The notes beneath the pieces were generated by a model that ran no database searches, was not told the DNA's origin, and saw only the letters and a program-made list of their open reading frames with translations. 24,517 nt of DNA, from assembly GCA_964419085.1 (NCBI GenBank), contig CAYQOI010000001.1, forward strand, positions 1-24,517, read 5' to 3'. This DNA comes from an uncultured Cytophagia bacterium. GTDB lineage: Bacteria; Zhuqueibacterota; Zhuqueibacteria; Oceanimicrobiales; Oceanimicrobiaceae. Every line of letters begins with the position of its first letter. The first letter of the stretch is position 1. Of the stretch, positions 6,381 through 20,886 are shown one piece after another. A program made the position numbers and the translations under genes.

Positions 6381-7328
6381 ATGTATACGAATTCCAAATC
6401 CAGGACCATTTTGGTGGTCGATGATGTTCCGGTCAACATTCAGTTGCTGAATACTTATTTGTCTGCGGAAGGGTATGTGGTGGTCACAGCGCAGGATGGG
6501 GTAGAGGCTCTGGAGAAGGTGAAGACGCTCGATCCCGATTTGGTGCTTCTGGATGTCATGATGCCGAAAATGAACGGATTCGAGGTGTGCAAAGCGATCA
6601 AGTCCGATGTCGACACCAAGTTTATTCCGGTGATCATGGTGACTGCGCTCAACGAACTGCAGGATAAGCTCAAGGGAATGGATTCGGGGGCGGATGACTT
6701 CCTGAGCAAGCCGTTCAACAAGTTGGAGCTTCTGGCGCGCGTGCGTTCGCTGCTGCGGATCAAGTATTTGCACGACGAGCTGCAGTTGAAGGTGATCGAG
6801 TTGCAGAAGGCCAAAGAGGAATTGCGACAATTGGCCATCACAGATGGGTTGACCGGGTTGTACAATTACCGCTATTTTAAGGAACATCTGCAGCAAGAGA
6901 TGAACCGCGCCCGTCGCCATGGTTCGCATGTTTCATTGATCATGATCGATATCGATCATTTCAAGCACTACAACGACACGCACGGTCACCCGGCGGGCGA
7001 TTTGGTGTTGAAGAACATCGCCACGCTGCTGAAGTCCAATATTCGCAGCATCGACCTGGCCGCGCGTTACGGCGGCGAAGAGTTTTCTCTGGTGCTCATC
7101 GAGACCAACAAGGCGGCGGCCAAGATTGTGGCGGAGAAGATTCGCCGTTTGGTCGAAGATCACGTATTCGAGTTTGAGGAAACGCAACCGGACGGCAAGC
7201 TCACCATCAGCACCGGCGTGGCCACTTTTCCCGAGGATGCCACCGATTTCGATGAGCTGGTCCAGGTGGCCGACCGACGGCTGTACATGGCGAAACAGGC
7301 GGGGCGCAATACCATTTTTGCGGAGTGA
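6381..7328 (+). CDS. Response regulator diguanylate cyclase (REC-GGDEF)
   Basis: REC with VVDD, LLDVMMP, MVTA and FLSKPF. GGDEF domain with DGLTGLYN, DIDHFKHYNDTHGHPAGD and RYGGEEF, plus an RxxD I-site (RSID) five residues upstream. Confidence 0.93.
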   Translation: MYTNSKSRTILVVDDVPVNIQLLNTYLSAEGYVVVTAQDGVEALEKVKTLDPDLVLLDVMMPKMNGFEVCKAIKSDVDTKFIPVIMVTALNELQDKLKGMDSGADDFLSKPFNKLELLARVRSLLRIKYLHDELQLKVIELQKAKEELRQLAITDGLTGLYNYRYFKEHLQQEMNRARRHGSHVSLIMIDIDHFKHYNDTHGHPAGDLVLKNIATLLKSNIRSIDLAARYGGEEFSLVLIETNKAAAKIVAEKIRRLVEDHVFEFEETQPDGKLTISTGVATFPEDATDFDELVQVADRRLYMAKQAGRNTIFAE

Positions 7329-7337
7329 GGGGAAAGC

Positions 7338-8819
7338 ATGAAATCCTGGTTTAGAAACTCGCTGTTTCAAAAGCTGTTCATCCTGACCTTTTTGGTGGCG
7401 GTGGTGCCCGTGGGACTCTCGTGGGTTTACTTTCTCTATATTGAAAATGGGACGTTCCGGGGCCGCGCAGCCACGCTGCCGGTGGTGTACTACGCGCTCT
7501 TTGGTCTGACTATCATTCTGGCAGCGGTGGGTGCCTACACCTTCAGCCGGCACATCAGCCGCCCCATCCGACATTTTATCAAGACCGCGACCGAGATCGC
7601 GCGCGGTAATTTTTCGCAACGCGTGGCGGTGGAATCCAACGACGAGATCGGCCGGCTGGCCAGAATCTTCAACTACATGGTGACCGAGTTGCGCCGGCTG
7701 GACGAAATGAACCTCAACAAGATCATCAACGAGAAAAACAAGACCGAAACCATTCTCAAGAATATCGCCGACGGCGTGATCGTCACCGACCCGTACGACA
7801 AGGTGCTGTTGATCAACTATGCCGCTGAACAGTGGTTCGGCCTGAAAGGCCGTCAGGTTGTCGATCGTTCCCTCACGGAAGTCGTGAAGAGCAGCACTCT
7901 CATCGAATTCATTCACAGTATTGCCACAAACAACAGACCCAGCGAAAAGTTCGAGAACATCGAGATCGCGCTGGATGTTCCGGAGTCCCGAAAGCCGGTT
8001 TTGCAGGCGCGGGCCGCAAAGATCATCAACGATAAGGGCGAGTTGATCGGCATCGTCACTGTACTGCGGGACATCACCAAAGAGAAAGAAATCGATCGGA
8101 TGAAGACCGAGTTGGTGTCGATGGTTGCACACGAATTGCGCTCGCCTCTCACCTGCATTTCCGGATTCAGCGAGCTGCTGCTGGATCCCACCATTACGCA
8201 AGAGCAGTCGGAGGAGTACGCCACCATCATTTTGAAAGAATCTAATCGGTTGAGCGAGCTCATCAACAAGTTTCTGGATATTTCGAAAATCGAGGCCGGA
8301 AAGAGCCAGTTGCGCAAGTCTCCGGTGGACATGAAAATGCTCATCGAGAAGGTGCTGGATTTCAATGCGCAGTTGGCAGACAAGAAATCCATTCGCGTCA
8401 ACTTTGAGGCGCCTAAGGAAGTGACCATCCTCAATCTGGATCGCGATATGATGGAGCAAGCGGTGCTCAATCTGTTCTCCAATGCCGTCAAATACAGCCC
8501 GAAAGGGGCCAGGATCACCGTGCGGCTGAGAGAGGATGACAGCTCCCTGATCTTCGATGTGGAAGATACCGGGTACGGCATCTCGGAGAAATCCCTCCCG
8601 CATATTTTCGATAAGTTCTACCGGATCACCGACAACGAGCAGGTGCGCGACATCATGGGATCCGGTCTGGGGTTGTCGTTGGTGCGCGAAATCGTGGAAA
8701 TCCACGGCGGAAGCATCAAGGTGAAAAGCATGCTGGGAAAAGGCTCGACCTTCACCGTGATTTTGCCCAAGTGCGAGTCTGTGCAGGAAGAAGCCAGTAA
8801 CGAAGAGATCTTGAGTTAA
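7338..8819 (+). CDS. Membrane sensor histidine kinase (2 TM-HAMP-PAS-HisKA-HATPase)
   Basis: Two TM helices, HAMP (DEIGRLARIFNYM), PAS (NIADGVIVTD), H-box AHELRSPL, N-box NLFSNAVKYS, DTGYGI and GSGLGL. Confidence 0.92.
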   Translation: MKSWFRNSLFQKLFILTFLVAVVPVGLSWVYFLYIENGTFRGRAATLPVVYYALFGLTIILAAVGAYTFSRHISRPIRHFIKTATEIARGNFSQRVAVESNDEIGRLARIFNYMVTELRRLDEMNLNKIINEKNKTETILKNIADGVIVTDPYDKVLLINYAAEQWFGLKGRQVVDRSLTEVVKSSTLIEFIHSIATNNRPSEKFENIEIALDVPESRKPVLQARAAKIINDKGELIGIVTVLRDITKEKEIDRMKTELVSMVAHELRSPLTCISGFSELLLDPTITQEQSEEYATIILKESNRLSELINKFLDISKIEAGKSQLRKSPVDMKMLIEKVLDFNAQLADKKSIRVNFEAPKEVTILNLDRDMMEQAVLNLFSNAVKYSPKGARITVRLREDDSSLIFDVEDTGYGISEKSLPHIFDKFYRITDNEQVRDIMGSGLGLSLVREIVEIHGGSIKVKSMLGKGSTFTVILPKCESVQEEASNEEILS

Positions 8820-8836
8820 ACGGTTGGGCATCCCGA

Positions 8837-10741
8837 GTGGAAGGAAAGAAACAAAAAACAATTCTGTTTGTCGACGACGACCCTGACATGCTGGAGATCG
8901 GCGGTATCATGCTGCGCAAGGCGGGATACGATTACCTCTCCGCCAGCTCCGGCGAGGAGGGGCTGAGCGTCCTGCTGGCCAGCAAGCCCGATCTGGTCAT
9001 TCTGGACTATATGATGCCGGGGATGAACGGATTTGAATTTTTCAAGCAGATGCGGCAGCATCCGAAATACAAGCCGGTCCGCCTCACGCCGGTGATCATG
9101 CTCACCGCGTACTCCGAGAAGGAGATCGAACGTCAGGCCTTGTTCGAGATGGGACTCAGCGCGTTTTTGCTCAAGCCGTTCGGCAATCGTGAACTGGTCA
9201 ACGTCATCGACAATGTTTTTATTCTGCATGAGCTGCGTGTAAAGAACAAGGAGCTGCAGGAACAGGTCAAACGCACGGAATACAAGTACCAGGACCTCAT
9301 CGAGAATGCCAGCGACATGATCTTCACGCTGAATCGGGAAGCGCGGTTTGTGTTCATCAATCGTCGACTGACCAGCATCACCGGACACAGTCGCGGGGAC
9401 TGGCTGGGCAAGCGTTTTGTGGATCTGATTGTTCCCGAGGACCGGGAGACCGCGAATCAAAATGTGCAAAAGACTATCACCGGGAAGGCCAGCATCTTCG
9501 AGGTCCGCTGTTGCCACACCAATGGCAAGCGGGTGCATCTGTCCATCAACATCAATCCGATTTTCGAAAGAGGGCAGGTCGTCGGATGTGTGGGCATCGC
9601 ACGGGACATCACCGAAAAAAAACAGCTCGAACAGGAGATCATCGAGCTGAAGAATTTCAACGAGAGCATCATCCAGAGCATGGGCTCCGGGTTGATCACC
9701 ATCGATTTTGAACGCCGCGTCACCTCCTTTAATCAGGGCGCGGAGGAGATGCTCGGCTACGCGGCCGAGGATGTGGTGGGCAAGCCGCTGGAGAGTCTTT
9801 TCCCAAAGGAAGACTGCGAGCGCCTTTTGTCCAATGTAGACGACCCGGACCGGAGTCTGCTGAACCGCGAGATGCAGTTGGGCACAAAAAACGGCCACTC
9901 CATTTATGTTGGGTTCACCGCCACCCCGCGGTTCGACACGCAAGGCAGGCGGGTGGGGGCGATCATTTCGTTCAAGGACATCACCCAGATCAAGCAGATG
10001 CAGAGCGAGGTTCAGCGGATGGACCGGCTGGCCTCCATGGGGGTGCTGGCCTCAGGGATTGCCCACGAAATCCGCAATCCGCTGGCCGGGATCAAGACCA
10101 TCGCGCAGACGCTGGAAGAGGACATCGAGCCGGATGATTCTCGCCGCGAATATGTCTCGCGCATCGTGCGCCAGGTCAACCGGATGGATGATCTTCTGAA
10201 AACCATCTTTTCCTACGCCAAGCCGCGGGAGCCGCAGAGAAAGTACCACCGGCTTCAGGAAATCGTGCAGGAAGTCGTGGCGCTGCTGGAAAATCGCATG
10301 CGGTCTCAATCGGTTGAGTTCGTCGAATCCTATCATCCGGAGTTGCCGCTGGCTTACGTCGATTTTTACCAGATTCAGCAGGTTTTCGTCAACCTGTTTT
10401 TGAATGCCCTGGATGCGATGCCGGACGGGGGGACGCTCAAGCTCGATGCCCACCCGAAGGTCACCACGCTTCATCGCGTCGACCGTCGCGGACGGCCGTT
10501 TACGGTGCAGAACAAAAGCGCGCTGTACGTGCAGGTGCTGCTGAGCGATACGGGTGTGGGGATCCAGCCCTCGGATTTGCCGTCGATTTTCAATCCTTTT
10601 TTCACGACCAAACCGCAAGGCTCAGGCCTTGGGCTGTCCATCGTCTATCGGATCATGACCGAACACAACGGGGACATCCAGGTAAACAGTGAGATGAACA
10701 AGGGAACGACTTTTTCGTTACTGCTACCAACGGAGGAGTGA
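8837..10741 (+). CDS. Cytoplasmic hybrid histidine kinase (REC-PAS-PAS-HisKA-HATPase, NtrB/AtoS-like)
   Basis: N-terminal REC (VDDD, LDYMMP, LKPF), two PAS domains, H-box IAHEIRNPL, NLFLNALDAM, DTGVGI, FNPFFTTK and GSGLGL. No TM segment. GTG start. Confidence 0.92.
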   Translation: MEGKKQKTILFVDDDPDMLEIGGIMLRKAGYDYLSASSGEEGLSVLLASKPDLVILDYMMPGMNGFEFFKQMRQHPKYKPVRLTPVIMLTAYSEKEIERQALFEMGLSAFLLKPFGNRELVNVIDNVFILHELRVKNKELQEQVKRTEYKYQDLIENASDMIFTLNREARFVFINRRLTSITGHSRGDWLGKRFVDLIVPEDRETANQNVQKTITGKASIFEVRCCHTNGKRVHLSININPIFERGQVVGCVGIARDITEKKQLEQEIIELKNFNESIIQSMGSGLITIDFERRVTSFNQGAEEMLGYAAEDVVGKPLESLFPKEDCERLLSNVDDPDRSLLNREMQLGTKNGHSIYVGFTATPRFDTQGRRVGAIISFKDITQIKQMQSEVQRMDRLASMGVLASGIAHEIRNPLAGIKTIAQTLEEDIEPDDSRREYVSRIVRQVNRMDDLLKTIFSYAKPREPQRKYHRLQEIVQEVVALLENRMRSQSVEFVESYHPELPLAYVDFYQIQQVFVNLFLNALDAMPDGGTLKLDAHPKVTTLHRVDRRGRPFTVQNKSALYVQVLLSDTGVGIQPSDLPSIFNPFFTTKPQGSGLGLSIVYRIMTEHNGDIQVNSEMNKGTTFSLLLPTEE

Positions 10742-10747
10742 GAAGTC

Positions 10748-12118
10748 ATGTCGCAAGCCAATGTGCTGATCGTCGAGGACAATGAGGATTTGTGCCAGAC
10801 TTTGGCCGATGTTCTGCGGAAGGAAGGCAACAAGGTTCGGACGGCCCTGACGGGCGAGCACGCACTTTCCATCTTAAATAAGGATATTATCGATCTTGTT
10901 CTGCTGGACATCAAGCTGCCGGACTTGAACGGGATCAAGATTCTCCAGGACATCAAAGACATGGACCCCGACGTGCTGGTGATCATGATCACGGCGTTGA
11001 CCGATGCGAAGCCCGCGGTGGAAGCGATGAAAATGGGCGCGTACGACTACCTCATGAAGCCGTTCGAGTTGGATGAGCTGAAACTGGTTGTGGCCAAAGC
11101 CCTGGAGACGCAGAACCTGAAACGGGAGGTTTCTCGCCTGAAGACGCAGCAGCATGAGCAGTTTCCGGACAACGAGTTGTACGGCGAATCCAAACCCATG
11201 CAAGAGCTCAAAAAAATGATCAAAATCGTGGCCAGTACGCCCAAGACCTCTGTTCTGATCCAGGGAGAAAGCGGCACCGGAAAAGAGCTCGTGGCCAACG
11301 CGATCCACAACTGGAGCGCCCGGGCCGACAAGCCGCTGATCAAAATAAACTGCAGCGCCATTCCGGAAAACCTGCTGGAAAGCGAGCTCTTCGGCTATGA
11401 AAAAGGCGCGTTCACGGATGCCAAATCCATGAAAAAGGGCATCTTCGAAATGGCCAACAACGGCACCATCTTTCTCGACGAGATCTCCAGCATGCAAATG
11501 TCTATCCAGCCGAAGTTCCTGCGCGTGCTGGAGACCCAGTCGTTCCGCCGCATCGGCGGGACCTCCGACATTCAGATCGACGTGCGGATCATCGCGGCGA
11601 CCAACCGCAATCTCGAGGATTGCGTGGAGCAACAAACCTTTCGCGAGGACCTGTACTATCGTCTGAAGGTCATGGTGCTGAATCTGCCGCCGCTCAGAGA
11701 GCGCACCGAGGACATCATTCCCTTGGCCATGCTGTTCATCGAGCGCAACAACAAAGAATTCGGCAAAGAGATCAAGGGCATCGCACCGGGGGCACAAAGA
11801 CGTCTCCTGGAGTACCGCTGGCCGGGCAACGTCCGCGAACTCAAGAACGTCATCGAACGCGCGGTTATTCTTTGCGGGGCTCCGGAGCTGGAAGCCGAAC
11901 ATCTGCCGCTGGAGATTCAAAACGGAGTCTCGAAACTCTCCACCTCCAATGAGTTTACCGCCCTGGCCGGTGACGACGATTCGTTGGAGGAGATGGAGAG
12001 ACGTCACATCATCAACGTGCTCAAGAAGTACAACGGCAACAAATCCAAGACCGCGAGGATGCTGAACATCTCGCGCTCCACCCTGCGCGAAAAGATGCGC
12101 AACTACGGCATTTCCTGA
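10748..12118 (+). CDS. Sigma54-dependent transcriptional activator (NtrC family; REC-AAA+-Fis HTH)
   Basis: REC, Walker A GESGTGKE, GAFTDA loop (variant of GAFTGA), Walker B FLDEI, FREDLYYRL, WPGNVRELKNVIER and a C-terminal HTH (NKSKTARMLNISRSTL). Confidence 0.95.
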   Translation: MSQANVLIVEDNEDLCQTLADVLRKEGNKVRTALTGEHALSILNKDIIDLVLLDIKLPDLNGIKILQDIKDMDPDVLVIMITALTDAKPAVEAMKMGAYDYLMKPFELDELKLVVAKALETQNLKREVSRLKTQQHEQFPDNELYGESKPMQELKKMIKIVASTPKTSVLIQGESGTGKELVANAIHNWSARADKPLIKINCSAIPENLLESELFGYEKGAFTDAKSMKKGIFEMANNGTIFLDEISSMQMSIQPKFLRVLETQSFRRIGGTSDIQIDVRIIAATNRNLEDCVEQQTFREDLYYRLKVMVLNLPPLRERTEDIIPLAMLFIERNNKEFGKEIKGIAPGAQRRLLEYRWPGNVRELKNVIERAVILCGAPELEAEHLPLEIQNGVSKLSTSNEFTALAGDDDSLEEMERRHIINVLKKYNGNKSKTARMLNISRSTLREKMRNYGIS

Positions 12119-12344: not shown

Positions 12345-12361
12345 CTGGTATGGGTTTTGCT
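12345..12361 (+). promoter_or_regulatory. Sigma54 (-24/-12) promoter
   Basis: CTGGTATGGGTTTTGCT against consensus YTGGCACGRNNNTTGCW: two mismatches and exact GG-N10-GC spacing. It ends 38 nt upstream of ATG 12400. Confidence 0.75.
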
Positions 12362-12399: not shown

Positions 12400-13071
12400 A
12401 TGACAACTGCGAAGCGCATTTTGATCGTCGACGATGAGGAGGACCTGGCATGGGGCATGTCAAAGAGCCTTTCTCGATGCAGGAATCTGGATGTACGGTG
12501 TGCCTATGACGGCAACCAGGCGCTGGCGCTGATGGACAACGAGCGCTTCGACCTGGTCATCTCGGACCTTCGCATGCCCGGGCGCAACGGCTTCGAACTG
12601 ATCCGCGAGATTCGGGAGTCCTACCCCGCCACTCGGGTCATCGTGATGACCGCCTACGGGTCGGAGGAGGTCATGGAACGGGCCGATGACTTCGGGAGCT
12701 TCTTTTATATCGAGAAGCCGTTTGACATGGGATATCTGAAGCAGACAGTCTTTTCCGCGCTGGGGTTGTCGCAGGCCGGGTTCGAGGGCTCGGTGCAACA
12801 TGCCGGCATCCGGGAACTCGTGGAACTAAACTGCTTCAGCCGAAAGGATTCCACCCTATGGGTGTCGCGGCGGCAAGAAAGCGGCGCCATCTATTTTAGA
12901 AATGGAGATGTCGTGCATGCCGAGTGCGGCGAGTTAGTGGGAGAACGGGCTTTCTACAACATCCTGAACTGGGACGGCGGACGCTTCAAGATTCGTCCCG
13001 GTTCGGCGTCCATCAAGCGAACCATTCGAAGGGATTGGCGCTCCCTTCTCCATCAGTGTCAACAGGTTTAG
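12400..13071 (+). CDS. Response regulator with a C-terminal DUF4388 (PATAN-like) domain
   Basis: REC (VDDE, SDLRMP, MTAYG, IEKPF). The C-terminus GFEGSV...IRELVEL...GAIYFRNGDVVHAE...GERAFYNILNWDGGRF matches the recalled DUF4388 pattern. Confidence 0.82.
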   Translation: MTTAKRILIVDDEEDLAWGMSKSLSRCRNLDVRCAYDGNQALALMDNERFDLVISDLRMPGRNGFELIREIRESYPATRVIVMTAYGSEEVMERADDFGSFFYIEKPFDMGYLKQTVFSALGLSQAGFEGSVQHAGIRELVELNCFSRKDSTLWVSRRQESGAIYFRNGDVVHAECGELVGERAFYNILNWDGGRFKIRPGSASIKRTIRRDWRSLLHQCQQV

Positions 13072-13932: not shown

Positions 13933-14343
13933 TTGTACAGAATTCTGCTGGTAGAGGACGACGAGAACACGCGCACCGGATTGGCTGAACTGTTGCGACA
14001 GGAAGGCTACGCAGTGGAGTCCGTGGCGACGGCTTCCGCGGCTCGTTCTGCAGTTAGCAGGACGGTAAACTTGATTCTCTCAGATCTGCATCTGCCCGAT
14101 GTCAGCGGGCTTGATTTGTTGGAAGATATTCGACGAGGGATACCAAACATTCCCAGCGTGATGATGACCGCGAACGGGACGCCGGAAAATCGTCGCCGAG
14201 GCGCCCGGCTTGGCGTGCGCCACTGGTTGCAAAAACCGTTGGACCTTCCCAAGCTCTTGGCCGTCATCCGGGAAACGGTAAATGAGGAAACAAAGGGAAA
14301 CCCTTCGCAATTCAAGACCAAGGCCGCATACGTCGAGTCTTGA
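13933..14343 (+). CDS. Single-domain response regulator (REC)
   Basis: ILLVEDD, SDLHLPDVSG, MMTANG and WLQKP. TTG start with GAGGA 7 nt upstream. Confidence 0.85.
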   Translation: MYRILLVEDDENTRTGLAELLRQEGYAVESVATASAARSAVSRTVNLILSDLHLPDVSGLDLLEDIRRGIPNIPSVMMTANGTPENRRRGARLGVRHWLQKPLDLPKLLAVIRETVNEETKGNPSQFKTKAAYVES

Positions 14344-14376: not shown

Positions 14377-15075
14377 GTGAACGCGAAGATCGGTCCGTTT
14401 GTCGGTCTTTTGCTAAAGAAAGGGATTTCGGTTGTTTTTATGGTTTTGTTGTTTGTCTCATTGATGAGCTTTACCGCCGACACGTACAGGATGGAGCAGC
14501 AAGAGCGCCGGGTGCAGCAATGGATAGATTGGGCGCAAGATTTTCGGGACGTTGTGCGAGTGGACAGCGTGCGACAGGCTGCCATCGACAAAGTGGTGCA
14601 GCTCATCGGCAAATACAATCGCCGGATGAGCCGGGAAGAAAAACTCGCTATCGCCAATGAGATCTACCGGATGAGCGTGAAGTACGACAACCTCGATATC
14701 GACCTGATCTGCGCGACGATTACGCATGAGACGGCTTTTACCTGGCGGACGGACATCGTTTCTCCGGTCGGCGCCATGGGGTTGATGCAGATCATGCCAC
14801 ACACCGGCTACTATCTGAGCAGGCACGAGGGCATCAAATGGACGGGCGCAACGAAAGTGCTGTTTAATCCGATTTATAACATCCGGATGGGATGCCGCTA
14901 TCTTTCCACGCTCATCGAGCTCTACGAGGTGGACGGCGGGTTGGCGGCCTACAACGGAGGTGAGCGACGCGCGGCGAGATGGCTGGCCAGCGGGCGCAAC
15001 AACCAGGTGCTGTTTGAAGAAACCAGAGAGTACGTGCCTGCGGTGCTCAGGCTGTACAACACCTACAAGAATTGA
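14377..15075 (+). CDS. Lytic transglycosylase (SLT domain) with N-terminal membrane anchor or signal
   Basis: Catalytic Glu motif ATITHETAF, GAMGLMQIMP, NIRMGCRYL, LAAYNGG and ETREYV. Hydrophobic N-terminus. AAGGAGG RBS before GTG 14377. Confidence 0.88.
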   Translation: MNAKIGPFVGLLLKKGISVVFMVLLFVSLMSFTADTYRMEQQERRVQQWIDWAQDFRDVVRVDSVRQAAIDKVVQLIGKYNRRMSREEKLAIANEIYRMSVKYDNLDIDLICATITHETAFTWRTDIVSPVGAMGLMQIMPHTGYYLSRHEGIKWTGATKVLFNPIYNIRMGCRYLSTLIELYEVDGGLAAYNGGERRAARWLASGRNNQVLFEETREYVPAVLRLYNTYKN

Positions 15076-16881
15076 ATGATGTCGACGCAAATGGCCGAAA
15101 TGTCTGAAGAGCGGTTTGTGGCAGAGCTGATTTCGCGGTTCTTTCATCGAGACAGCTACTTCTACTACTGCCTGAATCACCAACTGGAGGCTTCCCTCAA
15201 GGACGAACCGCTTGCGCAAGACCAGAGGTACGTGATTTTCGGTCATATTTTGGATAAGCTGGTGGAGGCGGAGGACAAGCTTTCGGAACTGAGCACCCTG
15301 GGTTCGGGAACCGAATTCGAGAACAGTTACAAGGCTCTCCTCGATGGTGCCAAAAAGCTGCGGCACGCCGAGTTGGTCGCCGAAACCATGAAGATAGAAA
15401 TCGAGCGTTTGGCCAAATCGTTTTTCCACAGCACGCTGAGCGCTTTGCAGGACGTTCGCACACAAAATCTTTTCTTACAGAAACTGGGAATGGCGGACCC
15501 GCTGACCGGGAACGGCACGCCTGAATTAGAGTTGGAAGAGCCGCTTTCTGAAGGACCAGTACTAGCGGAATCGAGTTTCTCCCTAAACGATCTCGCTGAG
15601 AGTGCGGGGGAAGCGACCACTGCGCCGACGGAAAAGGAGTTCCACACCGATCCAGAGACAGACAAGGAAGTCTTCGATTTGGGTGGATTCGAGAACGGTA
15701 CATCCGAAGGGAGCGGCTCTTCTGATTCTAACGGCGGCCCGGTCGACGGCACGAAGTTGCAGCCCAATCACGAGCCCGCGAGTCTGGTGGCGGTGTTTGC
15801 GGACAAAGCGCAGCAGCAGCTCGACCGGCTCGAACAAGGCCTGGCGGAATTGGCCCTGGCTCCCGGCGACGTGAGCGGCTGGAAAACCTGTGAGCTCGCG
15901 TTCGAGTCCATAGCCGGCATGGCGATGGTCTACGGTTTCGACGCGGTGGAGCAGATCGCAAACAAAGCGCGCCGCTTCATCGGTGACATCTACAAGGCGA
16001 ACCTCGATCGCAAAGCATCCGCGGTGGATGCCATCAACTGCGTACAGCAAAAGCTGCGCACGTTGTTGCGAAACGTTGAAGCAGTCGACGGAGGGGCGGT
16101 TCAGAGCATCGTGGATGAGCTCACCACGGCCCGGACGACATCGGCTCAAAAAAAAAGTGAAGAAATAAGCGTCGTCTCGGATACGCCTGCGGTCGGCGAC
16201 GGTTCGTCCGACTTGCCCGTGGCTGACAACCCTCCTTCTCAGGACGCCCGACAGCTTAAACTGCCCGGTGAAGATGACGAAGAGATTTTGCAACTCATCA
16301 AAGAAATTCGCCGCGAAAAGAACGTGGCCGTTGCCGATGAGCCGTACGCGTGCGAAGGAAGCGTGTGCGTTCCTCAGGTGGAGACGGTTTCCGTGGTCTC
16401 CTCAGTGACCGACGGGGTGGGGTCACAGGGCGCCCACGATGGAGTGCCGGCGTTCATAGAGAAAGCCGAGCTCTATTTTGCCGTGCTCGACGACGCGCTC
16501 AAGACCCTCGAAGGGGATCCGGAAAACAGGACCGCGCTCGAGGACATCGAGTTGGCCAGCAATTCGTTGTACAACCTCGCGATGCAGTTGGGGCTTGATG
16601 AAGTGGGCAAACTGCCCGCTCTGGTTCTGGATGTCACAAAGCAGGTGCTGGAGACCGATTACTTGATGTCCGCAGGCGATCACCAATTGCTGGTGGAGGC
16701 AATTCAGCGTTTCCGGAGGATCAGGCAATCGGAGGACGTTACAACGGAAGAGTTCAAAGAGGTGCTGCAAATGCTCGAAGACCTGAGGACGAACGTAAAG
16801 ATGTGGCAGGCACCGGAGTTGAACAGCCTGACTCTTGGAGAATCGGATGGGGTGAGGCCGCGGCCTCTCGACCTCCGGTAG
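15076..16881 (+). CDS. Protein with two Hpt-like (CheA P1-like) domains lacking the phosphoacceptor His, separated by acidic linkers
   Basis: Residues ~236-332 and ~456-550 follow the Hpt pattern F.E.A...L..L...L..L...P. The His position holds E277 (FESIAGMAMVYG) and N496 (SNSLYNLAMQLG). The exact start (15076 or a nearby downstream ATG) is uncertain. Confidence 0.7.
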   Translation: MMSTQMAEMSEERFVAELISRFFHRDSYFYYCLNHQLEASLKDEPLAQDQRYVIFGHILDKLVEAEDKLSELSTLGSGTEFENSYKALLDGAKKLRHAELVAETMKIEIERLAKSFFHSTLSALQDVRTQNLFLQKLGMADPLTGNGTPELELEEPLSEGPVLAESSFSLNDLAESAGEATTAPTEKEFHTDPETDKEVFDLGGFENGTSEGSGSSDSNGGPVDGTKLQPNHEPASLVAVFADKAQQQLDRLEQGLAELALAPGDVSGWKTCELAFESIAGMAMVYGFDAVEQIANKARRFIGDIYKANLDRKASAVDAINCVQQKLRTLLRNVEAVDGGAVQSIVDELTTARTTSAQKKSEEISVVSDTPAVGDGSSDLPVADNPPSQDARQLKLPGEDDEEILQLIKEIRREKNVAVADEPYACEGSVCVPQVETVSVVSSVTDGVGSQGAHDGVPAFIEKAELYFAVLDDALKTLEGDPENRTALEDIELASNSLYNLAMQLGLDEVGKLPALVLDVTKQVLETDYLMSAGDHQLLVEAIQRFRRIRQSEDVTTEEFKEVLQMLEDLRTNVKMWQAPELNSLTLGESDGVRPRPLDLR

Positions 16882-16935: not shown

Positions 16936-18675
16936 ATGTCCGACTACACCATGGAAACCGACAAAGAGCTGGAAGCCGTTCTGGGTTCGCACAAGACGCG
17001 CATCCGGATTGTGGGGACCGGCGGTGGTGGCAACAACACCGTCACACGACTCCTGGAGTCCGGCACCAAAGAGGTGGAGGTTATCGCGGTCAACACCGAT
17101 GCCCAGGATTTACTTTTCGCCAAAGCACACCAGAAACTCCTCATCGGCAAGAATATCACAAACGGGTTAGGCGCGGGAAGCGACCCGAAGAAAGGGGAGG
17201 AGTCCGCGAAAGAGAGTTTGCCGGAGCTGGAAAAAGCCCTGGCCGGCAGTGACATGGTATTCATCACCTGCGGTCTGGGCGGTGGGACGGGCACGGGCTC
17301 CGCGCCGATCATCGCAGAGACCGCGAAGAAGTGTGGCGCGTTGACCATCGCGATCGTAACCCTGCCGTTCAGCGATGAGGGGGTGGTTCGCTGGGACAAC
17401 GCGCACAAGGGCCTGGAACAGTTGCAGAAGAATGTGGACACCGTGATCGTGGTTCAAAACGACCGGCTTCTGGACCTGGTGCCGGATATGCCGTTGAGCG
17501 CTGCGTTCAAAGTTGCGGACGAAATTCTGGTGAACGCGGTGAAGGGTATCACCGAGCTGGTGACGGAGAAAGGGCTGGTGAACCTGGACTTCGCAGATGT
17601 CAAGACCATCATGGAAAACGGTGGTCTGGCGATGATCGGACTCGGGGAAAGCGAGTCGGAAAAGAACGCGGAGGAGGCGGCGGAAAAGGCCTTGCAAAAC
17701 CCGCTTCTGGACGTGGAGATCACCGGTGCGAGAAGTGCGCTGATCAACATCTCCGGTGGTCCCGATCTCTCGCTCAAGTCCGCCAAAACGATCATGAAGT
17801 TGGTTGCGGAGCGCCTGGACCCGTCCGCGCGGATCATCTGGGGAACGCGACTCGACGAGTCTCTGGGTTCGGCGATCCGGGTGATGCTCATCGTCACCTG
17901 CCTGAAGTCGCACAGACGGTCTGCTTCGGAGGTGGATATCGCGATCAAGAAAACGGCCGCGGATCAGCAGGGAGCCTCGCCGCAAAAGCCCGCCAAGCCG
18001 GCAACCGCGCCCCCTTCTGCGGATGGTTCTAAGAAGAAAGGCCAAAAGACTCAGAAGAACGGTAGTCAGGTGTTCTCTGAGATCTTTATGGAGGAGTCCG
18101 AAGCAGACCTGGTGATGCTGGAGGAGGCGATCAAAAATCTGAGTCCAGGCAACCAGCCTCACAACGAGAAATATCTTCGCAAGATGAAGACGGCTTCCAC
18201 ATCGCTCTACAACTCTTCGGAGCTGTTCGCATATTCGAGGTTGGCGGAGTTTACCGATTTGGTGGTGCAACTTACCGAGGGGGCCATTAAGCAGCAGTTT
18301 GATCTTTCCGAAAACTTGATCGAGCTGTTTCGGGAGATTCCTGCCGCTCTGAACGGGATGATCGTCGACGACAAAAAAGCGTACGAGACCGCGGACGAAT
18401 TGAAGCAGAAGTTTCACAACGTCCTTGACCTGGTGAACAACCCCGCGGGATCCGGAAACGGAGACGCGCCTGCCCAAGCACCTCGCGCAGAGGTGCTGTC
18501 CCCGCTCGACGAGGGTGCCACGCATTCCCCCGCTGCGTTGGGTTCCGAAGTCTCCGGCGCGGCAGGCGACACCGCTGTTGCGCCACAGACAAAGCCGGAG
18601 AGCGCTGTCCCGGAAGATGGGGAAGAAGGCGCCGAGCCCCAGAAAAAGGTTCGGTATTTTGACAAGTTGTTTTGA
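16936..18675 (+). CDS. ftsZ: FtsZ-family GTPase resembling archaeal FtsZ1, fused to a C-terminal His-less Hpt-like domain
   Basis: Tubulin signature GLGGGTGTGSAP, NTDAQ, GLGAG and T7 loop NLDFADV in residues ~20-325. Residues ~378-500 are Hpt-like, and the protein has low-complexity linkers. Confidence 0.9.
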   Translation: MSDYTMETDKELEAVLGSHKTRIRIVGTGGGGNNTVTRLLESGTKEVEVIAVNTDAQDLLFAKAHQKLLIGKNITNGLGAGSDPKKGEESAKESLPELEKALAGSDMVFITCGLGGGTGTGSAPIIAETAKKCGALTIAIVTLPFSDEGVVRWDNAHKGLEQLQKNVDTVIVVQNDRLLDLVPDMPLSAAFKVADEILVNAVKGITELVTEKGLVNLDFADVKTIMENGGLAMIGLGESESEKNAEEAAEKALQNPLLDVEITGARSALINISGGPDLSLKSAKTIMKLVAERLDPSARIIWGTRLDESLGSAIRVMLIVTCLKSHRRSASEVDIAIKKTAADQQGASPQKPAKPATAPPSADGSKKKGQKTQKNGSQVFSEIFMEESEADLVMLEEAIKNLSPGNQPHNEKYLRKMKTASTSLYNSSELFAYSRLAEFTDLVVQLTEGAIKQQFDLSENLIELFREIPAALNGMIVDDKKAYETADELKQKFHNVLDLVNNPAGSGNGDAPAQAPRAEVLSPLDEGATHSPAALGSEVSGAAGDTAVAPQTKPESAVPEDGEEGAEPQKKVRYFDKLF

Positions 18676-18684
18676 GCGAACAAA

Positions 18685-19281
18685 ATGGAGCGTCGAGACG
18701 TGGACGAGACATTTCCGCTGCGGCACACCTATTTCCGGGAAATGATGCGCAGCCTGAAAAAGATGAAAGCGGCTCTGGGCGCGTGGCAGAAACGGCCAGA
18801 GGAGAGAACGCACCCGCAAGCCATCGCAGCGGCGGCGCGGGAGGTGGCAGACCTGGCGATGATCCACGGCTACGAGGGTGTGGAGAGTATCGCGGAGCAG
18901 TTGCAGCAGAGCCTTGGGCGAATGAATCTTTCCGACGACCCGGAGCGAGCGGGCGTTTTTCTCAAGGTGGAATCCGCGATCGTCGCGATCCGACAGATCG
19001 CTCGCATCGAGGATTTTCTGGAAGGTCGCCTCACCGTGAGACGAGTTGCCGCCGACCGCGGCGATGATGTTTCCTCTCACACGGTGAAGATAGGTGACGA
19101 AGAAGCCGAGCCGTTCTGTGAGATCGAAAAGCTTACCGAGGCCGATTTGAACGATTTGAGCGCAATCTCTTCCCCAGAGCCTCAGTTCGATATCAGCGAG
19201 TTCGAGTCTGTGGCACATCTGATGGCCAAAGCCCGGACGCCGCGCGCCGAGTCTCCCTCGTCCGATTCCCTGCCACATTAA
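18685..19281 (+). CDS. Hpt-like domain protein lacking the canonical phosphoacceptor His, with an acidic C-terminal tail
   Basis: AAREVADLAMIHGYEGVESIA closely parallels AFESIAGMAMVYGFDAVEQIA in ORF 15076. It starts 9 nt after the ftsZ stop. Confidence 0.65.
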   Translation: MERRDVDETFPLRHTYFREMMRSLKKMKAALGAWQKRPEERTHPQAIAAAAREVADLAMIHGYEGVESIAEQLQQSLGRMNLSDDPERAGVFLKVESAIVAIRQIARIEDFLEGRLTVRRVAADRGDDVSSHTVKIGDEEAEPFCEIEKLTEADLNDLSAISSPEPQFDISEFESVAHLMAKARTPRAESPSSDSLPH

Positions 19282-19419: not shown

Positions 19420-20886
19420 ATGAGCGAGAAGATTATCGGGGAAGCCCTGACTTTTGACGACGTACTGCTGGTTCCGGGCTATTCGGAGGTTTTGCCGCGG
19501 GACACGGATGTGCGAAGCCGGCTCACGCGCAACATTGAGCTGAATGTTCCGCTCGTCGCGGCCGCAATGGATACGGTGACGGAGTCCGAGCTCGCCATCG
19601 CTCTGGCCCGAGAAGGCGGGATCGGAATTATCCACAAGAACATGCCGGCGAGCAAACAGGCGGAGGAAGTCGATCGCGTCAAACGCTCAGAAAGCGGGAT
19701 GATTTACAACCCCATCACGCTCACCGCGGACCGGAAGGTCAGGGAGGCGCTGGAGCTGATGAAGCGCTACAAGATCTCCGGCATTCCCATCGTGGAGGGG
19801 AAGAAGTTGGTGGGCATTCTCACCAACCGGGATTTGCGATTCGAAATCGACACCGAACAGGAGATCGGCACGGTGATGACGCGGGAAGGCCTGGTTACGG
19901 CTGCGGTCGGCACGACGCTGGAAGAGGCCGAGCAGATCTTACAGAAAAACCGCATCGAAAAATTGCCGGTGGTGGACGCGACCGGGAATCTGAAAGGTCT
20001 GATCACGGTAAAGGATATTCAGAAAAAGCGCCTTTACCCCAACGCGGCTAAGGATGAGAAGGGCAGACTCCTGGTGGGGGCTGCGGTCGGTGTGGGTTCA
20101 GACGCGATGTTACGTGCCGAGGCGCTGCTGGCGGCCAATGTGGATGTCATCGTTGTGGATACCGCGCACGGGCACTCCCGGGGCGTGCTGGAGACGGTCC
20201 GGCGCTTCAAGAAGGAGTTCGAGGACGTGGAGTTGATCGCGGGGAACATCGCCACGGAGGACGCGGCCAAAGCGTTGATCGATGCCGGCGCGGATGCCGT
20301 GAAAGTGGGCATGGGGCCCGGCGCCATCTGTACGACGCGGGTTGTTTCCGGTGTGGGTATGCCTCAGATCACCGCGGTGATGGAGTGTGCGAAAGCGTGC
20401 GAGAAAGCCGGCGTTCCTCTGATTTCCGATGGGGGGATCAAGCAAACGGGCGACATCGCTAAGGCCATCGCGGCCGGCGCGGATAGCGTGATGATCGGCA
20501 ACCTTTTCGCCGGCACCGAAGAAAGCCCGGGACAGAAGATGTTTCTCGGCGGGCGGAGCTTCAAGGTCTATCGTGGCATGGGGTCGCTCTCAGCGATGCA
20601 AGAGGGGAGCAAAGACCGATATTTTCAGGAGCATGAGACGGAGATGAAGAAGCTGGTGCCGGAAGGGATCGAGGGTCGCGTGCCCTACCGCGGGCGCGTC
20701 TGCGAGGTGGTGTACCAGATGGTAGGTGGCCTCAGGTCTGCGATGGGGTACTGCGGAACCAAAGACATCGCACAGCTCAAACGTGAGGGCCGTTTCGTGC
20801 GGGTGAGCACCCCGGGACTGGCGGAAAGTCACCCCCACGACATCCTCATCACGCAGGAGGCCCCGAACTACAACATGCTGAAATAA
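19420..20886 (+). CDS. guaB: IMP dehydrogenase with a CBS pair
   Basis: [46 protein letters not shown] (catalytic Cys), ISDGGI and YRGMGS. GAGGAG RBS. Confidence 0.97.

What the first reader, a model, noticed from the sequence alone, without database searches (positions are those of the whole stretch)
17911..18675. FtsZ C-terminal tail replaced by linker, pseudo-Hpt, linker and a short terminal peptide
Seen: after the FtsZ core there is a K/P/A-rich linker (~326-377), an Hpt-like bundle (~378-500: FSEIFMEESEADLVMLEEAIKNL...KTASTSLYNSS), an acidic A/P/E-rich linker, and a terminal KKVRYFDKLF. The bacterial (D/E)IPxFL peptide that binds FtsA/ZipA/SepF is absent. The frame is continuous, with no internal stop or obvious RBS. 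Inference: a direct fusion of a phosphorelay-derived domain to a tubulin-family polymer, which could let REC proteins dock on filaments. The basic-aromatic terminal peptide may be a short membrane-targeting or partner-binding motif. I do not recall a described FtsZ-Hpt fusion.
Basis: partly seen in the sequence, partly recalled or inferred. Interest (0 to 1): 0.85.

Follow-up and report, generated by a model that had tools for sequence, protein, structure and literature searches.

The report
Second FtsZ with dead phosphotransfer domain
This hot-spring bacterium of the Calditrichota/KSB1 phylum has, besides its normal division gene, a second FtsZ of archaeal type whose flexible tail carries a histidine-less copy of the chemotaxis CheA P1 phosphotransfer domain; the fusion is conserved across the phylum, almost always sits beside a response-regulator gene, and may be a direct link between two-component signalling and a cytoskeletal polymer.

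Summary
ORF 16936-18675 (579 aa) has five parts: a complete FtsZ core, a basic linker, a 125-aa five-helix domain, a disordered acidic linker and a conserved end peptide.

The helical domain is a CheA-P1-type Hpt by profile (E 5e-5) and by fold (TM 0.75, rmsd 2.1 Å to 1I5N). It has Thr422 in place of the phospho-accepting His. None of 97 distinct homologs has His there.

The tail was not "replaced" on the cell's FtsZ. This gene is a paralog. A canonical FtsZ ending in DVPAYLRRR lies next to ftsA on another contig. The paralog's core groups with archaeal FtsZ.

The fusion occurs in about 100 of 167 genomes of the phylum and was never seen unfused. In 33 of 38 loci a REC gene lies upstream. In seven families the module is only bEBP, REC and FtsZ-P1*, behind a conserved sigma-54-type element.

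REC docking on the dead P1 is therefore the best-supported mechanism, but it rests on gene context alone. The one complex prediction was uninformative.

I found no paper describing an FtsZ-Hpt fusion. This scan has already noted the same family on other DNA (e1-913875, e1-1247728, e1-3677197, e1-4049156).

The parts
16936..18675 (+). Whole gene: archaeal-type FtsZ paralog with P1* tail (579 aa)
   Evidence: Single ORF. TIGR00065 scores 419.6 bits. It is one of two FtsZ genes in the genome.
16936..17910 (+). FtsZ core (residues 1-325): Tubulin GTPase 23-182 and FtsZ_C 230-323. The G-box GGGTGTGS and the T7 loop NLDFADV are intact.
   Evidence: Best solved-structure match is M. jannaschii FtsZ1 at 397 bits, against 295 bits for the best bacterial FtsZ. 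The motifs were read directly.
17911..18060 (+). Linker 1 (residues 326-375), K/P/A-rich, variable in length and sequence among homologs
   Evidence: Alignment A1, columns about 330-395
18061..18438 (+). P1* domain (residues 376-501): five-helix CheA-P1-like pseudo-Hpt
   Evidence: Family profile against PDB: CheA P1 8c5v E 5.2e-5 and 1i5n E 2e-4. AF2 pLDDT 92. Foldseek: 1i5n TM 0.75-0.77, rmsd 2.1 Å; also 2lp4 and 3kyi.
18199..18201 (+). Codon of Thr422, the position aligned to the phospho-accepting His48 of CheA
   Evidence: HMMER alignment AAHSIKG / ACTSLYN. Among 97 distinct homologs the position is S 38, T 20, A 9, I 9, L 6, Q 3, Y 3, N 3, V 2, R/D/G 1 each, and His 0.
18439..18642 (+). 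Linker 2 (residues 502-569), acidic A/P/E-rich, predicted disordered
   Evidence: pLDDT 39-52 in the model of the whole tail. Not conserved in A5.
18643..18672 (+). Terminal peptide KKVRYFDKLF. Family consensus: F-S-N-V-x-E-A-V-K-Y-F-D-K-L-F.
   Evidence: Conserved at the extreme C-terminus in the near clade and recognisable across several families. Amphipathic, muH 0.66-0.85. Not docked on P1* in the model.
12400..13071 (+). REC-DUF4388 (PATAN) protein, first gene of the operon. Its REC is the ortholog of the single REC that sits directly before FtsZ-P1* in the minimal modules.
13933..14343 (+). Single-domain REC protein with intact D/D/T/K phospho-acceptor residues
13090..13920 (+). ParA/MinD-type ATPase of the operon
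14377..15075 (+). SLT lytic transglycosylase of the operon
15076..16881 (+). 601-aa protein with two His-less P1-like domains. The second (residues 459-538) is related to the FtsZ P1*.
   Evidence: Pfam Hpt at 237-333. CheA_Halo match at 456-575. hhalign E 4.9e-5.
18685..19281 (+). 198-aa protein with a weak Hpt-like N-terminus, 9 nt downstream of the FtsZ stop
12346..12361 (+). Sigma-54-type -24/-12 element TGGTAT-N5-TTGCT, 53 nt before the first operon gene
   Evidence: Not above chance within the window alone. Conserved at 53-71 nt in 10 of 13 homologous intergenic regions.
10748..12118 (+). REC-sigma54-activator (bEBP), conserved directly upstream of the module
8837..10741 (+). REC-PAS-PAS-HisKA-HATPase hybrid kinase. 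Its ortholog precedes the bEBP in a minimal module (45% identity).

Best explanation
Shown. The gene encodes an accessory FtsZ of archaeal ancestry that looks able to polymerise. It keeps the usual FtsZ plan of core, disordered linker and short terminal peptide. A CheA-P1-type four-helix-bundle domain that has lost its phospho-accepting histidine (P1*) is inserted into the linker. The fusion is old, is inherited across Calditrichota/KSB1, and the paralog was never seen without it. It lies behind a conserved sigma-54-type element and a response-regulator-type enhancer-binding protein. A gene for a phosphorylatable REC protein is almost always upstream.

Inferred mechanism. A hybrid histidine kinase upstream activates the bEBP, which switches the operon on. 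The co-encoded REC protein is REC-PATAN here and a bare REC in the minimal modules. It docks on the P1* domain, as CheY docks on CheA P1, but no phosphotransfer takes place. The phosphorylation state of the REC would then control where or whether the accessory FtsZ filaments assemble. Every subunit of the polymer would display one REC-binding site on a flexible tether.

The terminal [FY]-[FIV]-D-x-L-F peptide would act as a short linear motif that recruits an unidentified anchor or partner, as the C-terminal peptide does in other FtsZ proteins. In the extended operon, ParA, the SLT lytic transglycosylase and the other P1* proteins would add positioning and cell-wall remodelling.

The confidence given (0.45) is for the whole statement. 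I put the descriptive part at about 0.95 and the REC-docking mechanism at about 0.4.
For: Architecture and fold.

No His at the acceptor position in 97 homologs.

Paralog status: the genome holds two FtsZ genes, and the other has a bacterial C-terminal peptide next to ftsA.

Archaeal affinity:
- M. jannaschii FtsZ1 scores 397 bits against 295 for the best bacterial structure.
- The nearest named relatives outside the phylum are Thermoplasmatota, Lokiarchaeota, Methanobrevibacter and Freyarchaeota.
- A split with 100% support puts the clade with sequences bearing the archaeal GI[DE] motif and away from 87 bacterial-type FtsZ, including the genome's own.

Fusion always present:
- The tail domain is in 96 of 167 genomes and 62 of 100 genera.
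- Genomes without it have only the canonical FtsZ.

REC linkage:
- A REC gene lies upstream on the same strand in 33 of 38 loci with enough flank.
- In 18 of 18 loci from families f20-f26 the module is exactly bEBP, single REC and FtsZ-P1*. In L019 the REC stop overlaps the FtsZ start (ATGA).
- Both REC proteins of the window keep the acceptor Asp, Thr and Lys.

Sigma-54 element conserved in 10 of 13 loci.

Precedent for non-phosphorylatable Xpt domains acting as protein-binding scaffolds, and for FimL as a hub for the REC protein PilG: PMC12632253. The protein-atlas neighbours are Hpt and Hpt+FimL_C clusters.
Against: There is no direct evidence that any REC binds P1*. The three-chain complex prediction scored 0.00, and the tool says this counts neither for nor against.

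Four f15 loci and one f5 locus have FtsZ-P1* with no REC nearby, so REC adjacency is not universal.

Ser or Thr occupies the acceptor position in 58 of 97 sequences. This leaves room for Ser/Thr phosphorylation instead of pure docking.

The partner of the terminal peptide is unknown. No SepF was found in 31 genomes searched.

The biological process served is not known. Possibilities include alternative division, cell differentiation and envelope remodelling.

Confidence: 0.45

Rival explanations
1. P1* is a homotypic or heterotypic bundling module. It pairs with the other His-less P1-like domains of the operon (two in the 601-aa protein, one in the 198-aa protein) to cross-link or scaffold FtsZ filaments, with no REC involved.
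For: Four P1-like domains lie in three adjacent genes. The FtsZ P1* is related to the second domain of the 601-aa protein (hhalign E 4.9e-5). These genes co-occur with FtsZ-P1* in families f1, f2, f5, f11-f14, f17 and f18.
Against: The 18 minimal modules (f20-f26) and the orphan f15 genes keep P1* but lack the 601-aa and 198-aa proteins. These proteins therefore cannot be the domain's ancestral or universal partner. CheA P1 domains are not known to self-associate (my own knowledge).
Confidence: 0.17
2. The domain is still a phospho-acceptor, but on Ser/Thr. It would be an Spt/Tpt-type domain like those of ChpA, so FtsZ itself would be covalently modified at Thr422.
For: Ser or Thr occupies the His48-equivalent position in 58 of 97 distinct homologs. 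ChpA contains Ser- and Thr-type Xpt domains (PMC12632253).
Against: The other 39 sequences have A, I, L, Q, Y, N, V, R, D or G there. The ChpA Spt/Tpt domains were not found to be phosphorylated (PMC12632253). No CheA-type kinase domain is in the operon.
Confidence: 0.07
3. P1* is only a folded spacer in the C-terminal linker that tunes tether length or stiffness. The functional element is the terminal peptide alone, acting either as a membrane-targeting amphipathic helix or as an anchor-binding motif.
For: The core-linker-peptide plan is that of every FtsZ. The terminal peptide is amphipathic (muH 0.66-0.85) and carries +3 charge in the window's copy. It is conserved.
Against: The P1* sequence is conserved (mean column identity 66% in the near clade, with 22 invariant positions). 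The flanking linkers are not conserved. The terminal motif is acidic (-3/-4) in KSB1 long forms and is missing or altered in several families (L016, L017, L023, L024). That does not fit a general membrane anchor.
Confidence: 0.12
4. Artefact: two genes joined by a sequencing or assembly error (a missed stop or frameshift), or a chimeric contig.
For: The window comes from a fragmented metagenome-assembled genome (570 contigs). One low-depth contig shows a 166-nt skip from 17901 to 18068.
Against: The same single frame is found in about 100 genomes and 118 of the 120 nearest database proteins. A 780-nt contig crosses the junction without an indel, and no insertions or deletions were reported in two studies' data. 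The skipping contig has only 27 letters on one side and depth 2.7, which the tool flags as typical of another organism.
Confidence: 0.01

Closest known systems
Archaeal FtsZ1 (e.g. Methanocaldococcus jannaschii FtsZ1, PDB 1FSZ/1W58; Methanobrevibacter smithii FtsZ)
   Same: The core is most similar to it (397 bits) and groups on the archaeal side of the tree. Both follow the plan of core, disordered linker and short C-terminal peptide. The end motif [FY]-[FIV]-D-x-L-F resembles DDFIDGIF of M. smithii.
   Different: This one is found in a bacterium beside a canonical bacterial FtsZ/FtsA pair. It carries a folded P1* domain in the linker. It lacks the near-invariant archaeal G-I-D motif. No SepF, the archaeal anchor, was found in 31 genomes searched. 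It is placed under sigma-54/bEBP control.
CheA P1 (Hpt) domain (Salmonella 1I5N, E. coli 8C5V/2LP4, R. sphaeroides CheA3 3KYI)
   Same: Same five-helix topology, TM 0.75, rmsd 2.1 Å. The profile match covers helices A-E. The helix-A motif F-x-x-x-F-x-E-E is conserved.
   Different: The acceptor His48 is replaced by Thr here, and none of 97 homologs has His. The domain is not attached to the P2-P5 kinase modules. It is fused to a tubulin-family GTPase.
Non-phosphorylatable Hpt-like domains used as scaffolds: ChpA Spt/Tpt domains and FimL of Pseudomonas aeruginosa; plant AHP6 pseudo-Hpt (the last from my own knowledge)
   Same: These also have the Hpt fold without the acceptor His and are proposed or shown to bind partners without phosphotransfer. 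FimL with FimV localises the REC protein PilG (PMC12632253). Protein-atlas neighbours of the tail include Hpt+FimL_C clusters.
   Different: None of them is fused to a cytoskeletal polymer. Binding of a REC to the present domain is untested.
Bacterial FtsZ C-terminal peptide and engineered FtsZ-mts (MinD amphipathic helix; from my own knowledge)
   Same: A short conserved amphipathic peptide at the end of a disordered tether.
   Different: It lacks the D-I/V-P-x-F/Y-L-R/K signature. Its charge is not consistently positive, so a direct membrane anchor is unlikely across the family.

Membership tests
FtsZ (TIGR00065 / Pfam Tubulin + FtsZ_C) | Full-length match above the curated cut-off, with both domains present | tested here: met
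   419.6 bits against 295.2. Tubulin E 5.6e-46 and FtsZ_C E 4e-32.
FtsZ (TIGR00065 / Pfam Tubulin + FtsZ_C) | GTP-binding G-box GGGTGTG and T7 catalytic loop N-x-D-x-x-D | tested here: met
   GLGGGTGTGSAP (residues 113-124) and NLDFADV (216-222), read. Both are invariant in A1.
Bacterial division FtsZ | C-terminal D-I/V-P-x-F/Y-L-R/K peptide and a dcw/ftsA neighbourhood | tested here: not met
   The tail ends in KKVRYFDKLF, and the neighbours are REC, ParA, SLT and P1* genes. The genome's other FtsZ meets both criteria.
Archaeal FtsZ1 | Core groups with archaeal FtsZ and not with bacterial FtsZ | tested here: met
   A split with 100% SH-like support. All four named sequences on its side are archaeal, and none bears the bacterial peptide. 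PDB scores agree. Caveat: this is a FastTree of top hits, and most rows are unnamed.
Archaeal FtsZ1 | C-terminal G-I-D motif that binds SepF, with SepF present | tested here: not met
   The motif is Y-F-D-K-L-F, only similar to the M. smithii variant. SepF (PF04472) was not found in 31 genomes, while the control detected it in 7 reference genomes.
Hpt / CheA P1 (PF01627) | Helical-bundle fold of P1 type | tested here: met
   pLDDT 92. Best PDB matches are all CheA P1, with TM 0.71-0.77.
Hpt / CheA P1 (PF01627) | Sequence match to the family model | tested here: inconclusive
   The window's copy scores 14.0 bits, below the cut-off of 24.6. Five of 8 homologs match, best E 3.3e-5. One relative, P0020, scores 25.7 bits. 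The family profile hits CheA P1 chains at E 5e-5.
Hpt / CheA P1 (PF01627) | Phospho-accepting histidine on helix B | tested here: not met
   Thr422 aligns to His48, and 0 of 97 homologs have His. It is therefore a pseudo-Hpt, not a working Hpt.
Hpt / CheA P1 (PF01627) | Binds a REC domain | tested here: inconclusive
   The complex prediction scored 0.00, which the tool reports as no evidence either way. Gene context favours binding. A binding assay is needed.
Membrane-targeting amphipathic helix (MinD/FtsA type) | Amphipathic helix with net positive charge, conserved as a pattern | tested here: inconclusive
   muH 0.66-0.85. Charge is +3 here, 0 to +1 in near relatives and -3/-4 in KSB1 long forms. 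Liposome binding cannot be tested with these tools.

The most novel reading that the evidence does not exclude
Two-component signalling plugs directly into a tubulin-family polymer. A phosphorylated REC protein binds the histidine-less P1 domain displayed on every subunit of an archaeal-derived FtsZ filament. This would gate assembly or placement of a second, sigma-54-induced Z-structure, which, together with ParA and a lytic transglycosylase, would drive an alternative division or cell-remodelling programme in Calditrichota/KSB1.
Probability: 0.3. Interest if true: 0.85.

Novelty: new variant of a known kind. Interest (0 to 1): 0.72.

Why it matters
FtsZ tails are known as disordered tethers that end in a short partner-binding peptide. 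A folded signalling domain built into that tether has, as far as I could find, not been described (literature searches).

If the dead P1 domain docks a response regulator, this would be a new, direct route from a sensor kinase to a cytoskeletal filament. It would also be a bacterial case of a pseudo-Hpt used as a scaffold.

The core is of archaeal type and sits beside a normal bacterial FtsZ/FtsA pair. This looks like an ancient inter-domain transfer of a cytoskeletal gene that was then rewired with bacterial signalling parts.

The module is present in about 60% of the genomes of a poorly studied phylum. It probably underlies a conditional cell-biological behaviour that is not yet known.

Tried and rejected
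1. Complex prediction of the tail with the two operon REC proteins, each supplied with an ortholog alignment, scored 0.00. It is unusable as evidence in either direction.

2. SepF as the partner of the terminal peptide: no PF04472 match in the window's own genome or in 30 relatives.

3. Intramolecular docking of the terminal peptide onto P1*: the model of the whole tail leaves the last 75 residues at pLDDT below 50, so there is no support.

4. A membrane-targeting helix as the general role of the end peptide: weakened by the acidic variants.

5. Missed stop or chimera: rejected.

6. Sigma-70 promoter and terminator scan of the operon: nothing above chance. The sigma-54 pattern is also not above chance within the window alone. 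It becomes meaningful only through its conservation in relatives.

7. The 198-aa protein does not match the FtsZ P1* profile by hhalign. It has only a weak Pfam Hpt hit.

8. Literature searches for FtsZ with Calditrichaeota, with Hpt domain, or with phosphotransfer domain returned nothing relevant.

9. The residue numbers printed were shifted by two. The tally was redone correctly.
Full report
**What is in the window**

ORF 16936-18675 (+) is a single 579-aa frame.
- Residues 1-325 are a complete FtsZ. Pfam finds Tubulin at 23-182 and FtsZ_C at 230-323. TIGR00065 scores 419.6 bits against a cut-off of 295.2. The G-box and the T7 loop are intact.
- The finding's coordinates (17911-18675) start at codon 326 and cover the rest.
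- Residues 326-375 are a K/P/A-rich linker.
- Residues 376-501 are a helical domain.
- Residues 502-569 are an acidic A/P/E-rich stretch.
- The protein ends in KKVRYFDKLF.
- The stop codon is followed after 9 nt by the next gene.

**Is the helical domain Hpt-like?**

The window's copy alone scores only 14 bits on Pfam Hpt, where the cut-off is 24.6. It also gives a weak NCBIfam CheA match (E 0.0015). A profile built from eight orthologous tails (A2) does better. It finds the CheA P1 chains of E. coli and Salmonella in the PDB (8c5v E 5.2e-5, 1i5n E 2e-4) and a designed repeat protein, BRIC1, whose two matched stretches align like CheA P1 (E 1.9e-10).

An AlphaFold2 model of the domain is confident (pLDDT 92, pTM 0.85) and has five helices. 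Its best structural matches in the PDB are all CheA P1 domains: 1i5n with TM 0.75-0.77 and rmsd 2.1 Å, then 2lp4, 8c5v and 3kyi/3kyj.

In the HMMER alignment the phospho-accepting His48 of CheA (AAHSIKG) falls on Thr422 (ASTSLYN). Across 97 distinct homologs that position is S 38, T 20, A 9, I 9, L 6, Q 3, Y 3, N 3, V 2 and R/D/G 1 each. It is never His. The domain is therefore a CheA-P1-type pseudo-Hpt, written P1* below.

**Is the fusion real and conserved?**

- All of the 120 nearest database proteins that are not truncated (118 of 120) carry the domain after an FtsZ core. A few already carry a precomputed Pfam Hpt label.
- In a survey of 167 genomes of the phylum, the tail domain was found in 96 genomes and 62 of 100 genera. 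It always lay in open frames of about 500-900 aa without stops.
- Searching the same genomes with the FtsZ core shows that the genomes holding the paralog are those holding the tail. Four more genomes (G014, G033, G035, G037) have frames of 510-552 aa whose tails were too divergent for the profile.
- Families without the tail (f4, f7, f8, f9) have only the canonical FtsZ. An unfused version of this paralog was not seen.
- Metagenome contigs from two studies (hot spring and microbial mat) cover the gene without insertions or deletions. One 780-nt contig crosses the core/tail junction.

A missed stop is excluded.

**It is a paralog of archaeal type, not the cell's division FtsZ with a swapped tail**

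The genome (570 contigs, 89% complete) has two FtsZ genes. The other one lies next to ftsA and ends in ...DYDVPAYLRRRMD, the normal bacterial peptide. It is 43.6% identical to the core of the window's gene.

The window's core scores 397 bits against M. jannaschii FtsZ1 and 295 bits against the best bacterial structure. In an exhaustive search of 50%-identity representatives, the nearest sequences outside the phylum are 46-56% identical. Where a name is available they are archaeal: Thermoplasmatota, Lokiarchaeota/Promethearchaeota, Methanobrevibacter and Freyarchaeota. Many of them end in the archaeal LGI[DE]F[LV] motif.

A FastTree of 142 cores gives a split with 100% support. On one side are the Calditrichota/KSB1 paralogs with these archaeal-type sequences. 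On the other are 87 bacterial-type FtsZ, including the genome's own canonical copy. The tree uses top-scoring, mostly unnamed sequences and is not rooted, so the donor lineage is open.

**The terminal peptide**

In the window's family the last 15 residues follow F-S-N-V-x-E-A-V-K-Y-F-D-K-L-F. The window's copy is somewhat deviant upstream of V-R-Y-F-D-K-L-F. Recognisable variants occur in other families:
- VVKYVDKLLRN
- AVKYVNNLLKGM
- AVRYIMKLFDRRSQ
- EVMEYLDDLF...
- GYIVNRLREM...

In some families the motif is absent or changed (L016, L017, L023, L024).

The pattern [FY]-[FIV]-D-x-[LI]-F at the very end mirrors the M. smithii FtsZ C-terminal peptide NEDQLDDFIDGIF, which binds SepF (PMC8178401). 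I read this as a diverged FtsZ C-terminal motif retained behind the inserted domain. That is an inference from a short motif.

SepF itself was not found in the window's genome or in 30 relatives, 24 of them of high quality. The same search detected SepF in seven reference genomes. The partner is therefore unknown.

The peptide is amphipathic (muH 0.66-0.85). Its net charge varies from +3 here to -3/-4 in the KSB1 long forms. That speaks against a general membrane-anchor role and for protein binding.

In a model of the whole tail, everything after residue 505 is disordered (pLDDT 39-52) and the peptide does not pack on P1*.

**Genomic context**

In the window the gene is the seventh of a co-oriented set:
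1. REC-DUF4388 (PATAN)
2. ParA-type ATPase
3. REC
4. SLT lytic transglycosylase
5. a 601-aa protein with two His-less P1-like domains
6. FtsZ-P1*
7. a 198-aa weakly Hpt-like protein
8. IMP dehydrogenase

Upstream lie REC-GGDEF, two histidine kinases and a REC-sigma-54 activator. Both REC proteins keep the acceptor Asp and the conserved Thr and Lys.

The order bEBP / REC-PATAN / ParA / REC / SLT / 2xP1* / FtsZ-P1* / 198-aa / IMPDH is kept in the 12 nearest public loci, all Calditrichaceae, "Caldithrix sp." or KSB1 MAGs. With small variations it is also kept in families f2, f11-f14, f17 and f18. In f5 (L015) the ParA-to-198-aa part is kept, but neither a REC nor the bEBP was found upstream.

In 18 of 18 loci from seven more distant families (f20-f26) the module shrinks to bEBP / single REC / FtsZ-P1*. 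In L019 the bEBP is preceded by the ortholog of the window's hybrid kinase (45% identity), the REC stop overlaps the FtsZ start, and housekeeping genes follow. That REC is the ortholog of the REC half of the window's REC-PATAN protein.

In family f15, four loci show long-tailed versions. Database relatives of this kind are about 700-900 aa. They stand alone among unrelated genes.

Overall, 33 of 38 loci with enough flank have a REC gene upstream on the same strand.

A TGGYAY-N5-TTGCW element lies 53-71 nt before the first gene after the bEBP in 10 of 13 loci examined, including the minimal modules. Within the window alone the match is not above chance.

**How it most likely works**

Shown:
- An accessory FtsZ that looks competent to polymerise.
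- A conserved His-less P1 domain on a flexible tether.
- A conserved end motif.
- Conserved linkage to a bEBP, a sigma-54-type element and a phosphorylatable REC.

Inferred:
- The kinase and bEBP switch the genes on.
- The REC protein docks on P1* as CheY does on CheA P1, without phosphotransfer. The REC's phosphorylation state would then control assembly or placement of the filaments.
- The end peptide recruits an anchor or partner.
- ParA, SLT and the extra P1* proteins were added later for positioning and wall remodelling.

Precedents exist for Hpt-like domains that cannot be phosphorylated and serve as binding scaffolds. Examples are the ChpA Xpt domains and FimL acting as a hub for the REC protein PilG (PMC12632253). 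The plant pseudo-Hpt AHP6 is another, cited from my own knowledge.

The only direct test I could run was a three-chain complex prediction with ortholog alignments. It scored 0.00, and the tool states that this is no evidence either way. I put the descriptive part at about 0.95 and the REC-docking mechanism at about 0.4.

**Rivals**

1. P1* pairs with the other P1-like proteins of the operon. The relation to the 601-aa protein's second domain is real (hhalign E 4.9e-5). However, the minimal and orphan forms keep P1* without those proteins.
2. Ser/Thr phosphorylation at position 422. S or T is present in 58 of 97 sequences, but many non-phosphorylatable residues occur in the rest, and no CheA-type kinase is present.
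3. A mere structured spacer. The domain is much better conserved than its flanking linkers.
4. Assembly artefact. Excluded.

**Comparison with what is known, and novelty**

The protein is a member of the FtsZ family, with an archaeal-type core. It is not a bacterial division FtsZ by tail or by context, and it is not a functional Hpt because it lacks the acceptor His.

Full-text searches for FtsZ with Calditrichaeota, Hpt domain, paralog or phosphotransfer domain returned nothing describing such a protein. The FtsZ-family survey PMC9871819 does not mention these taxa. Some database entries already carry Tubulin + FtsZ_C + Hpt labels, so the architecture is visible in databases but appears undescribed.

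Within this scan the same family was already noted and followed up on other genomes, with the same reading (e1-913875, e1-1247728, e1-3677197, e1-4049156). Those are unchecked AI notes and I did not use them as support.

- The phylum-wide tally showing that the fusion and the paralog are coextensive.
- The minimal bEBP-REC-FtsZ-P1* module in seven families.
- The acceptor-position census.
- The conserved sigma-54 element.
- The absence of SepF.
- The reading of the end peptide as a diverged archaeal-type FtsZ C-terminal motif.

I class it as a new variant of a known kind, with interest 0.72.

Noticed in passing
L019:8794-12276 (-), L020, L025-L040: In seven distant families of the phylum the module is reduced to bEBP, a single 133-aa REC and FtsZ-P1*. 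In L019 the REC stop overlaps the FtsZ start (ATGA). ParA, SLT and the other P1-like proteins are absent. This is probably the ancestral core of the system.
   Followed up: partly
L021:8931-11279 (+), L041-L043: Family f15 carries long forms of the fusion (782 aa in L021) in which a Pro/Ala-rich linker of about 400 aa precedes P1*. They end in EVMEYLDDLF plus a basic extension and stand alone among glycosyltransferase, AMP-binding, TPR and cytochrome genes, with no REC or bEBP nearby.
   Followed up: partly
window 12346-12361 and homologous intergenic regions: A sigma-54-type -24/-12 element (TGGYAY-N5-TTGCW) lies 53-71 nt before the first gene after the bEBP in 10 of 13 loci. It is not significant within the window alone.
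   Followed up: partly
window 6381-10741 (+): A signalling block lies directly upstream of the bEBP: REC-GGDEF diguanylate cyclase, HAMP-PAS histidine kinase and REC-PAS-PAS hybrid kinase. The hybrid kinase has an ortholog (45% identity) in the same position in a minimal module.
   Followed up: partly
window 17901-18068: One low-depth metagenome contig (depth 2.7, only 27 letters on one side) skips 166 nt of linker 1. It probably comes from a related organism with a shorter linker. 166 is not a multiple of 3.
   Followed up: no
proteins P0123, P0124, P0130: Three database proteins of 744-840 aa match the FtsZ core in two separate stretches, so they look like tandem double-FtsZ proteins. P0137 (863 aa) and others on the archaeal side carry N-terminal extensions of about 500 aa before the core.
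   Followed up: no
window 19420-20886 (+): IMP dehydrogenase follows the module in the window and in most near relatives. This suggests a stable chromosomal position, not a mobile island.
   Followed up: no
whole window: Near-identical DNA is present in a hot-spring metagenome (2018) and in a microbial-mat metagenome (2024) from two different studies. No RNA run was shown to hold it.
   Followed up: partly
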